Virus record (IMG/VR): IMGVR_UViG_2778261301_000008
Location: 1-29,154 of that record
DNA from: a virus
Taxonomy: Duplodnaviria; Heunggongvirae; Uroviricota; Caudoviricetes
Reading direction: 5' to 3' (one strand)
DNA length: 29,154 nucleotides
Below, one piece after another: positions 21,868 through 22,270 of this stretch (the first letter of the stretch is position 1; the number at the start of each line of letters is the position of its first letter). The position numbers and the translations under genes are program-made. The notes under the pieces are model-generated. The model was given only the letters and a program-made list of their open reading frames with translations. It did no database searches and was not told the origin of the DNA.

Positions 21868-21906
21868 CTTAAACGTCTTTCAGTCACTCCGGGATTTCCC
21901 ATCATC

Positions 21907-21920
21907 GCAGACTGAAAGAC
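21907..21920. repeat. 14-bp direct repeat GCAGACTGAAAGAC, copy 1, immediately 3' of the tRNA pair
   Basis: Identical 14-mer also at 22205-22218; an inverted partial copy (GTCTTTCAGT) at about 21876-21885 forms a hairpin with this copy. Confidence 0.7.
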
Positions 21921-21926
21921 TCTAAC

Positions 21927-22000
21927 TGGAGCGAGCAGCGGGAATCGAACCCGCATCATCAGCTTGGAAGGCTGAGGTAATAGCCATTATACGATGCCCG
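21927..22000 (-). tRNA. tRNA-Gly (UCC)-like; possibly defective
   Basis: Near-match to recalled E. coli glyT: acceptor GCGGGCA, T-arm GCGGG-TTCGATT-CCCGC, anticodon loop CUUCCAA, discriminator U plus CCA; in my reading a 1-nt difference disrupts the anticodon stem. Confidence 0.55.
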
Positions 22001-22003
22001 CAT

Positions 22004-22079
22004 ATGGTGCCGACTACCGGAATCGAACTGGTGACCTACTGATTACAAGTCAGTTGCTCTACCTACTGAGCTAAGCCGG
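22004..22079 (-). tRNA. tRNA-Thr (UGU)
   Basis: 76-nt cloverleaf by hand folding: acceptor GCCGGCT/AGTCGGC, D-arm GCTC...GAGC, anticodon stem ACTGA/TCAGT with loop CTTGTAA (anticodon TGT), T-loop TTCGATT, discriminator A plus CCA. Confidence 0.75.
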
Positions 22080-22204
22080 CGCTGGTTCCTCGGGTGTGAA
22101 TGAGATGCCCGGATACATAATTTACCCTTCCCTCGGAACCGCAGAGATAATACAAATAAATAACCAGAATTCAATATTTGCTTATTCGTCTGTCGAAAAA
22201 GTCA

Positions 22205-22218
22205 GCAGACTGAAAGAC
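22205..22218. repeat. 14-bp direct repeat GCAGACTGAAAGAC, copy 2, upstream of the tRNA pair
   Basis: Identical to 21907-21920. Confidence 0.7.
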
Positions 22219-22270
22219 CGGTATTCACAACCACCAGCGCGTTTAACGTCCGGTGCTGTTTTTCGGACAT

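What the first reader, a model, noticed from the sequence alone, without database searches (positions are those of the whole stretch)
21868..22230. Phage tRNA pair (Thr-UGU, Gly-UCC-like) in the late leader, flanked by 14-bp direct repeats
Two tRNA genes sit between tR' and the holin, the slot occupied by tRNA genes (and stx) in Stx phages. The pair is bracketed by identical GCAGACTGAAAGAC copies about 300 bp apart, which could mark a cassette insertion or RNA processing sites. The Gly tRNA, in my reading, has an acceptor G-U pair and a 1-nt change that breaks the anticodon stem, so it may be a pseudogene or a tRNA-derived RNA.
Basis: partly seen in the sequence, partly recalled or inferred. 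Interest (0 to 1): 0.5.

Follow-up and report, generated by a model that had tools for sequence, protein, structure and literature searches.

The report
Host-derived tRNA pair in prophage late leader
Two intact tRNA genes copied from the host's thrU and glyT sit between the Q antiterminator and the holin of a lambdoid prophage, a well-known arrangement, and the 14-bp repeats around them do not mark a cassette.

Summary
Partly confirmed, and ordinary. ARAGORN and Rfam both call tRNA-Thr(UGU) at 22005-22080 and tRNA-Gly(UCC) at 21927-22001. Both lie on the minus strand, between Q/tR' and a phage-21-type holin. Each differs from E. coli K-12 thrU or glyT by one base: Thr A5G gives G5.U68 and Gly C69U gives G4.U69. 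The Gly anticodon stem is intact and identical to host glyT, so the pseudogene reading is wrong.

The 14-mer GCAGACTGAAAGAC does occur twice, 298 bp apart, but it does not bound a cassette.
- The downstream copy is the 5' arm of a conserved RNA hairpin that starts 6 nt after tRNA-Gly. It is the first of three stem-loops supported by covariation.
- The upstream copy lies in the post-tR' segment. It reads 12/14 or 9/14 in several relatives that carry the same tRNA pair.
- Each copy occurs without the other in relatives, and no empty site was found in 5,426 E. coli genomes or in IMG/VR.
- An equally close exact 14-mer repeat arises in about 5% of simulated windows.

The most likely role is extra supply of two single-gene, rare-codon tRNAs; ACA is 2.6-fold and GGA 1.9-fold enriched in the late genes. 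The Thr anticodon arm equals host thrU, so it does not belong to the P2-OLD-resistant class. The same pair is already annotated in phage phi467 and others.

The parts
22375..23196 (-). Q antiterminator gene (273 aa)
   Evidence: Pfam PF03589 Antiterm, E 5.9e-51. Annotated as antitermination protein in the closest relative, JP538.
22342..22369 (-). Candidate pR' late promoter: TTGATT, 16-nt spacer, TAAATT
   Evidence: Read from the sequence. It matches only 8/12, so the consensus scan did not flag it. The inference rests on its position just after Q and on the lambda pR' -10 element TAAATT (my own knowledge).
22266..22294 (-). tR'-like intrinsic terminator (AGCCCGCCACTCAGCGGGTT followed by a T-run)
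   Evidence: It is the only terminator-like site the scan found in 21400-22500.
22205..22218 (.). Upstream copy (A) of the 14-mer. Sense strand reads GTCTTTCAGTCTGC. It lies in the post-tR' segment.
   Evidence: Exact match. Not conserved: 12/14 in JP538, L038 and 117 loci that lack Thr-Gly, and 9/14 in phi467. The exact form is seen only in L025, L032 and L241. Mostly unpaired in the predicted centroid fold.
22147..22174 (-). Candidate sigma-70 promoter for the tRNA pair: TTGAAT, 16-nt spacer, TATTAT
   Evidence: Flagged by the consensus scan at 9/12, although the number of such sites in the region is no higher than in shuffles. Kept in every relative with this leader, and as TTGAAC-16-TATGAT in phi467. 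Function is inferred, not shown.
22005..22080 (-). tRNA-Thr(UGU). It equals host thrU apart from A5G (base 22076), which gives G5.U68.
   Evidence: ARAGORN. Rfam 71.2 bits. 75/76 identical to K-12 thrU.
21927..22001 (-). tRNA-Gly(UCC). It equals host glyT apart from C69U (base 21934), which gives G4.U69. The anticodon stem is intact.
   Evidence: ARAGORN. Rfam 62.5 bits. 74/75 identical to K-12 glyT.
21875..21920 (-). Hairpin 1 of the trailer. Its 5' arm contains the downstream copy (B) of the 14-mer (21907-21920). The lower stem has 11 bp, followed by an internal loop and a GGG/CCC upper stem.
   Evidence: Inverted repeat I2, 11/11 complementary. Two adjacent compensatory pair swaps (UC/GA to CU/AG) distinguish two clades. 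It is always found 6 nt after the glyT 3' end.
21795..21867 (-). Hairpin 2 of the trailer: 16-bp outer stem with an inner stem-loop
   Evidence: Inverted repeat I1, 16/16 complementary. Compensatory changes at three outer pairs and one inner pair.
21742..21796 (-). Hairpin 3 of the trailer
   Evidence: Inverted repeat I3. Four pairs show compensatory changes.
21700..21720 (-). Weakened terminator-like hairpin upstream of S. A window-private C-to-T change at 21714 removes a stem pair.
   Evidence: Relatives read CCCGCTTTTGCGGG followed by a T-run. HK639 annotates a terminator at the equivalent place.
21419..21634 (-). Class II (phage 21 type) holin S, 71 aa
   Evidence: Pfam PF04971, E 8e-35.

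Best explanation
The feature is a pair of functional tRNA genes that a lambdoid phage lineage took over from the host thrU-tyrU-glyT-thrT (tufB) tRNA cluster. They sit in the leader of the late operon, on the late-gene strand, between Q/pR'/tR' and a phage-21-type lysis cassette.

They are probably transcribed in two ways: from pR' once Q suppresses tR', and possibly from a promoter-like site of their own 65 nt upstream. The precursor would be cut by RNase P at each 5' end. The Thr 3' end then keeps only a 3-nt UAU trailer to be trimmed.

Once charged by host ThrRS and GlyRS, the tRNAs add to the pools of tRNA-Thr(UGU) and tRNA-Gly(UCC). By my own recollection these are the only E. coli tRNAs with those anticodons; the paper PMC12445682 states this for UGU. 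They read ACA and GGA/GGG, codons that the phage late genes use about twice as often as host genes.

The two window-specific substitutions turn Watson-Crick pairs into G.U wobbles at acceptor positions 5:68 and 4:69. As far as I know these positions are not identity elements, so both genes remain intact.

The 14-bp direct repeat has no role of its own. The downstream copy is one arm of the first of three conserved stem-loops in the RNA between tRNA-Gly and the holin. The upstream copy is an unrelated piece of the post-tR' segment that happens to match.

Shown: the identity, integrity, origin and position of the tRNAs; the codon enrichment; the conserved structure of the trailer; and the non-conservation of the repeat pair. 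Inferred: expression, processing, aminoacylation and the benefit to translation.
For: tRNA calls come. Identity to K-12 thrU is 75/76 and to glyT 74/75, and relatives are 100% identical to the host genes. The context Q, holin, DUF1327, lysozyme and Rz is confirmed by Pfam, and the tR' terminator.

Codon use in 23 late ORFs was compared with 42 K-12 CDS. ACA is 11.0 versus 4.2 per 1000 (2.6-fold, p 2e-8). GGA is 12.3 versus 6.5 (1.9-fold, p 3e-5). GGA+GGG is 1.7-fold (p 3e-9).

The same pair is annotated in this slot in phi467, vB_EcoS-689R5, PhiR47_1, JLK-2012 and many E. coli prophages. Published precedent: SfI, Sf6, ST64T and phage 21 carry a tRNA-Thr(UGU) downstream of Q, and ACA is over-represented in SfI (PMC3636060).

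The predicted cost of the two wobble pairs is small, about +0.6 kcal/mol for Thr and +3.0 kcal/mol for Gly, and the acceptor stem is retained.

On the repeats: copy B lies in a hairpin with compensatory changes. In the structure count 97.7% of cells pair against 40-48% when the partners are slid, and 12 pairs show double changes. The structure belongs to the sense strand, with 202 G.U cells against 9 A.C cells. Copy A is variable and separable from copy B, and no empty site exists.
Against: No expression or aminoacylation data exist for this locus. The codon argument is not specific. AGG (7-fold), AGA (4-fold) and CGA (2.7-fold) are more enriched than ACA, and this prophage carries no tRNA for them. 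The host baseline is only a 42-gene sample.

The candidate promoter is a 9/12 consensus match in a region where such matches are no more frequent than in shuffles.

The two private substitutions occur in none of 5,426 E. coli genomes and in no IMG/VR contig. They could be early decay or sequencing errors. With 2 changes in 151 nt, the tRNA genes are no better conserved than their flanks in this lineage.
Confidence: 0.7

Rival explanations
1. Anti-defence tRNAs. The pair would replace host tRNAs destroyed by tRNA-cleaving defence nucleases. An example is P2 OLD, which kills mainly by cutting host tRNA-ThrU (UGU).
For: PMC12445682 reports three things. P2-OLD targets host tRNA-Thr(UGU), the sole UGU tRNA. 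Phage tRNA-Thr(UGU) genes, including that of phage 21, rescue cells. Cleaved tRNAs share a paired CNG motif at 28-30/40-42 plus A37. Both thrU and glyT carry that motif in the sequence read here.
Against: According to the same paper, resistance requires an altered CNG motif together with a shortened anticodon stem, and overexpressing host tRNA-ThrU gave little or no protection. The window's tRNA-Thr anticodon arm is identical to thrU: CUG/CAG is intact and the A27-U43 pair is kept. The SfI/phage-21-type Thr has U28-A42 and a G27.A43 mismatch. The Gly anticodon arm is likewise identical to the host's.
Confidence: 0.12
2. Mobile or inserted cassette. The tRNA pair would have been inserted as a unit, with the 14-bp direct repeats as a target-site duplication or recombination scars, or as paired RNA-processing sites.
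For: The exact 14-mer occurs twice, 298 bp apart, around the pair. Only about 5% of simulated windows show such a close exact repeat. Among the loci sampled, the exact upstream form was seen only where the downstream copy is also present: the window, L025, L032 and L241.
Against: JP538 and L038 carry the pair with a 12/14 upstream copy, and phi467 with 9/14. The commonest arrays (ileZ-like, argN-like, Thr, Gly) have no upstream copy. L038 has no downstream copy. Homology breaks lie at the tRNA 5' and 3' edges and about 15 nt downstream of copy A (towards tRNA-Thr), not at the repeats. The predicted empty-site junction was found 0 times in IMG/VR and in 0 of 5,426 E. coli genomes. The sequences flanking the two copies are unrelated. 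In the predicted fold copy A does not pair with the partner arm of copy B.
Confidence: 0.03
3. Decaying genes. The Gly gene, or both genes, would be a pseudogene or a source of a tRNA-derived RNA in a defective prophage.
For: Each gene carries a private substitution not seen in 5,426 E. coli genomes or in IMG/VR. A third private change weakens the terminator-like hairpin upstream of S. Truly decayed glyT copies do exist in relatives such as HK639, L176, L221 and L236.
Against: Both changes keep pairing as G.U. Rfam scores are 71 and 62 bits. The anticodon, D and T arms are identical to functional host genes. The alleged anticodon-stem break does not exist.
Confidence: 0.06
4. Recombination hot spot. 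The main evolutionary significance of the conserved tRNA sequences would be as junction points for mosaic exchange, or as integration targets within the late leader, rather than decoding.
For: Module boundaries coincide with tRNA edges: at the 5' edge of Thr in the 4-tRNA arrays, immediately 3' of the Gly CCA in L038, and inside Gly in L221, L176 and HK639, where the glyT 3' end is always retained.
Against: This describes a consequence, not a reason for keeping intact host-identical tRNA bodies across hundreds of loci while their flanks diverge. It is compatible with the best explanation.
Confidence: 0.09

Closest known systems
E. coli thrU and glyT, in the thrU-tyrU-glyT-thrT cluster upstream of tufB
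   Same: The mature sequences are 75/76 and 74/75 identical. Anticodons, all four arms and the encoded CCA match. Relatives of the window are 100% identical to the host genes.
   Different: In the phage tyrU and thrT are absent and the two genes are only 3 nt apart. The host has an 8-nt spacer, then tyrU, then a 116-nt spacer. The leader, spacer and trailer show no similarity to the host operon. The window carries the G5.U68 and G4.U69 wobble pairs.
tRNA-Thr/tRNA-Gly loci of the Stx2f phage phi467 (LN997803) and of phages vB_EcoS-689R5, PhiR47_1 and JLK-2012
   Same: Same gene pair, same 3-nt spacer, same trailer hairpins and same P21-type holin. phi467 is 94.8% identical across window 21418-22236. 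The loci are mentioned in PMC5189129.
   Different: phi467 has stx2f between tR' and this block, while the window has none. phi467's upstream 14-mer matches only 9/14. The relatives carry the host-type A5 and C69.
ileZ-argN-argO tRNA cluster of 933W and other Stx2 phages
   Same: tRNA genes in the Q-to-lysis/stx leader on the late strand, for codons that are rare in E. coli. The commonest relatives of this locus carry an ileZ-like and an argN-like tRNA directly upstream of the same Thr-Gly pair.
   Different: The window has only Thr and Gly. These are host thrU/glyT copies, not members of the argN/ileZ lineages.
Phage 21 / SfI tRNA-Asn(GUU) and tRNA-Thr(UGU) downstream of Q
   Same: Same slot, same UGU anticodon, and a similar holin ribosome-binding region.
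   Different: The phage 21/SfI Thr is a diverged tRNA with U28-A42 and a G27.A43 mismatch, which is the P2-OLD-resistant type of PMC12445682. The window's Thr has the host thrU anticodon arm. SfI has a short trailer without hairpins 1-3.

Membership tests
Canonical bacterial elongator tRNA gene (Rfam RF00005) | Cloverleaf scoring above the family threshold | tested here: met
   71.2 bits (Thr) and 62.5 bits (Gly) against a gathering score of 29. ARAGORN calls both.
Canonical bacterial elongator tRNA gene (Rfam RF00005) | All four stems paired, and a 7-nt anticodon loop with U33 and a purine at 37 | tested here: met
   The only non-standard pairs marked by Rfam lie in the Gly D-stem and the Thr T-stem, and both are identical in the functional host genes. 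The anticodon stems are UCAGC/GCUGA (Gly) and ACUGA/UCAGU (Thr). The loops are CUUCCAA and CUUGUAA.
Canonical bacterial elongator tRNA gene (Rfam RF00005) | Identity elements for the cognate synthetase are retained. For Gly these are U73, G1-C72, C2-G71, G3-C70, C35 and C36. For Thr they are G1-C72, C2-G71, G35 and U36. This list comes from my own knowledge of the literature. | tested here: met
   All are present in the sequence. The private changes lie at 4:69 and 5:68, outside these elements.
Canonical bacterial elongator tRNA gene (Rfam RF00005) | Expressed, processed and aminoacylated | not testable with these tools
   Needs Northern blots, tRNA-seq or acid-gel analysis.
Lambdoid late-leader tRNA cluster (Q-to-lysis/stx slot) | Located between Q/tR' and the lysis or stx genes, on the late-operon strand | tested here: met
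   The order on the minus strand is Q, then the tR'-like terminator, then Thr, Gly and holin.
Lambdoid late-leader tRNA cluster (Q-to-lysis/stx slot) | Decodes codons over-represented in phage genes relative to the host | tested here: met
   ACA 2.6-fold, GGA 1.9-fold, GGA+GGG 1.7-fold against a 42-CDS K-12 sample. The match is not exclusive, because AGG, AGA and CGA are more enriched still.
Defence-evading phage tRNA-Thr(UGU), the P2-OLD-resistant class (PMC12445682) | UGU anticodon | tested here: met
Defence-evading phage tRNA-Thr(UGU), the P2-OLD-resistant class (PMC12445682) | Altered CNG motif at 28-30 / 40-42 | tested here: not met
   CUG/CAG is identical to host thrU. The SfI/phage-21-type Thr does have U28-A42.
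Defence-evading phage tRNA-Thr(UGU), the P2-OLD-resistant class (PMC12445682) | Shortened anticodon stem (loss of the 27-43 pair) | tested here: not met
   The A27-U43 pair is retained.
Insertion cassette bounded by direct repeats (target-site duplication) | Both repeat copies conserved wherever the cassette is present | tested here: not met
   The upstream copy is 12/14 in JP538 and L038, 9/14 in phi467 and absent from the 4-tRNA arrays. The downstream copy is absent from L038.
Insertion cassette bounded by direct repeats (target-site duplication) | Empty sites exist that keep a single copy of the repeat | tested here: not met
   0 matches to the predicted junction in IMG/VR. 0 of 5,426 E. 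coli genomes cover at least 80% of a synthetic junction query.
tRNA pseudogene or tRNA-derived element | Disrupted stems, truncation or loss of the anticodon arm | tested here: not met
   There is one G.U wobble per gene and nothing else. True decayed copies in HK639, L176, L221 and L236 look quite different.

The most novel reading that the evidence does not exclude
The 180-nt trailer that begins 6 nt after tRNA-Gly (21742-21920) would be an undescribed cis-acting RNA element of the late transcript. The 'downstream repeat' is the arm of its first hairpin. One possible role is a 5'-terminal stem-loop platform. After RNase P and RNase E release the tRNAs, it would protect the holin-endolysin mRNA from 5'-end-dependent decay. 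Another is a processing scaffold for the tRNA 3' end. The trailer forms three stem-loops with compensatory changes and a strong sense-strand G.U bias. It has no Rfam match, its first hairpin (the part queried) is present in about 18% of complete E. coli genomes, and it is always physically linked to the glyT 3' end.
Probability: 0.3. Interest if true: 0.4.

Novelty: already known. Interest (0 to 1): 0.15.

Why it matters
It matters little beyond correct annotation. The locus is one more example of lambdoid prophages carrying host-derived tRNA genes for rare codons in the Q-to-lysis leader, the slot that holds stx in Stx phages. There are three useful by-products.

First, a sequence test separates host-identical Thr(UGU) copies such as this one from the diverged, P2-OLD-resistant phage-21 type. 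That bears on whether a given prophage tRNA serves codon supply or defence evasion.

Second, the work uncovered a conserved, structured RNA trailer tied to the phage glyT copy.

Third, this prophage shows the stx-free configuration of the late region of the Stx2f phage phi467.

Tried and rejected
- Cassette or target-site-duplication reading. I compared relatives and searched for empty sites. Rejected.
- Long-range pairing of the upstream copy with the inverted partner, enclosing both tRNAs like an rRNA processing stem. The 576-nt fold forms the local hairpin instead, and the upstream copy is mostly unpaired in the centroid. Rejected.
- Gene conversion from copy B to copy A as the source of the exact match. 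The exact allele differs from the common allele at three nearby positions, and one of them does not match copy B. Two diverged alleles plus chance are a sufficient explanation.
- Small ORF in the trailer, a 37-codon ATG ORF starting at 21865 on the minus strand. It is frameshifted by a 1-nt deletion in JP538, and the poly-T tract length varies. Rejected.
- Rfam search of 21600-22500 at E up to 1. Apart from the two tRNAs it returned only sub-threshold hits: antisense Plastid-ycf2 matches over the tRNAs and weak STnc220 and Trp-leader matches over tR'.
- Looking for the two private substitutions elsewhere. There were none in E. coli complete genomes or IMG/VR. The only genome-contig hit for the Gly variant is an unrelated Alteromonadaceae MAG.
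- Literature searches for ileZ/argN/argO were swamped by unrelated words or returned nothing. The phage 21 late-region paper (PMC207295) and Bailly-Bechet 2007 (PMC1987346) are not held.
- G4:U69 as a shifted AlaRS determinant. I considered this from memory only. As far as I recall, mischarging of G4:U69 tRNAs has been reported for human AlaRS but not for E. coli AlaRS. Not pursued.
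Full report
**Observation**

ARAGORN finds exactly two tRNA genes in the 29-kb window. Both are on the minus strand: tRNA-Thr(UGU) at 22005-22080 and tRNA-Gly(UCC) at 21927-22001. Rfam's tRNA model scores them 71.2 and 62.5 bits against a gathering score of 29. Three bases (UAU) separate the Thr CCA from the first base of Gly.

The 14-mer GCAGACTGAAAGAC occurs at 21907-21920 and 22205-22218 and nowhere else, even with one mismatch allowed.

The surrounding genes are all on the minus strand. They are RusA, Q (Pfam Antiterm), a phage-21-type class II holin, DUF1327/YdfR, a lysozyme and Rz. 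An intrinsic-terminator-like site with the expected tR' position lies at 22294-22275. 'Between tR' and the holin' is therefore correct.

**Integrity of the tRNAs**

I aligned both genes with E. coli K-12 MG1655. The Thr gene is thrU with a single change, A5G. The Gly gene is glyT with a single change, C69U, which is linear position 68. Each change converts a Watson-Crick acceptor pair into a G.U wobble: G5.U68 in Thr and G4.U69 in Gly.

The Gly anticodon stem is UCAGC/GCUGA, and its loop is identical to the host gene. The Rfam alignment marks no non-standard pair there. The predicted cost of the wobbles is about 0.6 and 3.0 kcal/mol, and the acceptor stem is kept.

To my knowledge positions 4:69 and 5:68 are not identity elements for GlyRS or ThrRS. 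The known elements are all present.

Both substitutions are private to this window.
- The best match among 5,426 complete E. coli genomes is 168/170.
- Neither variant occurs in IMG/VR.
- In the species-representative genomes only the Gly variant was searched, and it occurs once, in an unrelated Alteromonadaceae MAG.
- Four close relatives carry the host-type bases.

Two changes in 151 nt matches the 1-2.5% divergence of the flanks. They say nothing for or against selection, and sequencing error cannot be excluded.

**Origin**

Every E. coli genome matches the pair in two pieces at the thrU-tyrU-glyT-thrT cluster upstream of tufB. Only the mature tRNA bodies are shared. The host leader, the thrU-tyrU and tyrU-glyT spacers and the glyT-thrT spacer have no counterpart in the phage. 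The pair is thus a host-derived thrU plus glyT without tyrU.

**The repeats**

The downstream copy (B) is the 5' arm of a perfect 11-bp inverted repeat, 21875-21885 with 21910-21920.

The upstream copy (A) lies about 55 nt downstream of the tR' T-run.
- The nearest relative with the same architecture, E. coli JP538 (97.5% identical), reads GTCTTTCAGCTTGC on the sense strand, a 12/14 match.
- The Stx2f phage phi467 carries the same tRNA block, and there the match is 9/14.
- I sampled 122 loci, almost all from an IMG/VR scan, that share the sequence just upstream of copy A. 117 have the 12/14 form and no Thr-Gly pair downstream; they continue into a 933W-like ORF, methylase and tRNA region.
- Two loci (JP538 and L038) have the 12/14 form with the pair.
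- Three (L025, L032, L241) have the exact form with the pair.
- L038 has the pair but a completely different sequence right after the Gly CCA, so it has no copy B.
- The commonest architecture around copy B is a four-tRNA array that has no copy A.

Homology between relatives breaks at three places: the 5' edge of Thr, the 3' edge of Gly, and about 15 nt downstream of copy A (towards tRNA-Thr). It does not break at the repeats.

The junction predicted for a deletion between the two copies was found in no IMG/VR contig. No E. coli genome covers at least 80% of a synthetic junction query.

The window contains two other exact 14-mer direct repeats. One overlaps copy B and pairs with a site in a tail gene. 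About 5% of first-order Markov simulations give an exact 14-mer direct repeat within 400 nt. A 12/14 match within a kilobase is what chance gives by my own estimate.

I conclude that the repeat is a coincidence between a hairpin arm and an unrelated segment, sharpened in one allele. It is neither a cassette boundary nor a pair of processing sites.

**What copy B belongs to**

The 290 nt between tRNA-Gly and the holin contain three long inverted repeats: 11, 16 and 9 bp, all perfectly complementary in the window.

Phage HK639 is 79% identical over this stretch, and IMG/VR supplied a second, diverged clade. I aligned 24 distinct sequences. RNAalifold predicts hairpin 1 (21875-21920), hairpin 2 with an inner stem (21795-21867), hairpin 3 (21742-21796) and a terminator hairpin. 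Twelve pairs keep pairing through changes on both sides.

Counting pairs on the named structure gave these results:
- 97.7% of cells are paired, against 40-48% when the 3' partners are slid by 1-3 columns.
- 81 cells show double changes, against 27.5 ± 6.5 in shuffles.
- 2 of 500 shuffles reach 12 covarying pairs.

Most of this variation separates two clades, so the number of independent events is small. Part of hairpin 1 was also fixed by my search pattern. The two covarying pairs of hairpin 1 lie outside that pattern.

There are 202 G.U cells but only 9 A.C cells. The structure therefore holds on the late-transcript strand (97.7%) and less well on the opposite strand (84.4%). That points to an RNA-level constraint rather than a DNA cruciform. 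A fold of the whole 576-nt leader forms the three hairpins in both the MFE and the centroid structure, and it does not pair copy A with the partner arm of copy B.

Hairpin 1 starts 6 nt after the Gly CCA in nearly all of about 119 loci. Where the Gly gene has decayed or been replaced (HK639, L176, L221, L236), the glyT 3' end is still attached to it. Hairpin 1 is present in 987 of 5,426 E. coli genomes. Rfam has no family for this trailer.

SfI, which has a related holin start region but a different tRNA pair, lacks these hairpins. They are therefore not required for holin expression in general.

Their function is unknown. My inference is a 5' stem-loop that protects the downstream lysis mRNA once the tRNAs are excised, or a 3' processing scaffold. 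This is untested.

**Likely function of the tRNAs**

The paper PMC12445682 states that thrU is the sole UGU tRNA of E. coli MG1655. That glyT is likewise the only UCC tRNA is my own recollection.

I compared 23 late ORFs of the window with 42 annotated K-12 genes.
- ACA is used 11.0 per 1000 against 4.2 (2.6-fold).
- GGA is used 12.3 against 6.5 (1.9-fold).
- GGA+GGG is used 32 against 18.6 (1.7-fold).

This fits the usual codon-supply explanation. The SfI paper reports the same ACA bias for a tRNA-Thr(UGU) in this slot, and lists Sf6, ST64T, PS3 and phage 21 as further cases.

The fit is not exclusive. AGG, AGA and CGA are more enriched, and this prophage has no tRNA for them, whereas many relatives add ileZ-like and argN-like tRNAs.

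A promoter-like site, TTGAAT-16-TATTAT at 22174-22147, lies 65 nt upstream of Thr. It is kept in every relative with this leader, with promoter-preserving changes in phi467. This suggests, but does not show, expression in the lysogen. Otherwise the tRNAs depend on Q-mediated read-through of tR'. The BTP1 transcriptome paper mentions two tRNA genes just upstream of the lytic operon, but sets them aside when listing highly expressed genes.

**Rival: defence evasion**

A 2025 paper shows that P2 OLD kills mainly by amputating the anticodon arm of host tRNA-ThrU. It also shows that phage tRNA-Thr(UGU) genes, including that of phage 21, rescue cells because they combine an altered CNG motif (28-30/40-42) with a shortened anticodon stem. 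Overexpressed thrU gave little or no protection.

The window's Thr has the thrU anticodon arm unchanged: CUG/CAG with A27-U43. The SfI/phage-21-type Thr has U28-A42 and a G27.A43 mismatch. The window's gene therefore fails the two defining features of the resistant class, and I rank this rival low. The Gly anticodon arm is also host-identical.

**Comparison with what is known, and verdict**

The same Thr-Gly pair, spacer and trailer are already annotated in phi467, vB_EcoS-689R5, vB_EcoM-606R7, PhiR47_1 and JLK-2012, and in many E. coli prophages. They are also mentioned in print for the Stx2f phage.

phi467 is 94.8% identical over window 21418-22236, and there stx2f lies between tR' and this block. 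The window is the stx-free counterpart.

The finding is a correct sighting of a known kind of feature. One wrong detail, the anticodon stem, and one over-read coincidence, the repeats, need correcting. The only element that may be new is the structured trailer. Interest is low.

Noticed in passing
window 21742-21920 (minus strand): Three conserved stem-loops sit between tRNA-Gly and the holin. They show compensatory changes and a strong sense-strand G.U bias, have no Rfam match, and are always attached to the glyT 3' end. The first hairpin, the part queried, occurs in 987 of 5,426 E. coli genomes. This may be an undescribed cis-acting RNA element of the late transcript.
   Followed up: yes
Related loci, e.g. 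L004:1427-1503, L133, L130, L129, L189, L216, L238 (not in the window): In the 4-tRNA arrays of relatives, the tRNA between the CAU tRNA and Thr is a single conserved scaffold of the argN family. It is 80.5% identical to 933W argN and has a C1-G72 acceptor start. Its anticodon loops differ widely: Lys-UUU with C33, Arg-UCU, 5- and 6-nt loops, and calls of Phe-AAA, Leu-UAA and 'stop' UUA. This is anticodon-loop hypervariability or decay on a conserved body. It is unexplained.
   Followed up: partly
L007:1580-1655 (phage SerU-LTIIb) and L008:1595-1669 (E. coli A31): Copies derived from thrU and glyT have switched anticodons. A thrU-like tRNA carries UCU (Arg). A glyT-like tRNA carries UUC (Glu) together with a G73 discriminator and acceptor-stem changes.
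   Followed up: partly
L006:1680-1760 (HK639), plus L221, L176 and L236: These loci hold decayed or replaced glyT copies. HK639 keeps only the 3' half, next to a tRNA-Asn. L221 keeps about 22 nt of the 3' end, with unrelated DNA upstream, which may be an insertion into the phage tRNA gene. L236 has a T-arm deletion.
   Followed up: partly
window 21714: A window-private C-to-T change removes a stem pair of the terminator-like hairpin upstream of the holin. Relatives read CCCGCTTTTGCGGG followed by a T-run.
   Followed up: no
window 21418-22236 versus LN997803 (phi467): The holin, trailer, tRNA pair and promoter-like block is 94.8% identical to the Stx2f phage phi467, where stx2f lies between tR' and this block. 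The window shows the stx-free arrangement.
   Followed up: partly
window 22029-22051 and 21950-21972 (anticodon arms): Both thrU-type and glyT-type anticodon stems carry the paired CNG motif (CUG/CAG and CAG/CUG) plus A37. PMC12445682 associates this with P2-OLD cleavage. Whether tRNA-Gly(UCC) is an OLD substrate is not stated in the main text I read.
   Followed up: no
window 2311-2324 and 21900-21913; 26938 and 27100: Other short exact direct repeats were seen. One is a 14-mer, CATCATCGCAGACT, shared between a tail gene and the site overlapping copy B. Another is a 12-mer, TATATTTTTCCG, found twice 162 nt apart in the early region. Both look like chance.
   Followed up: no
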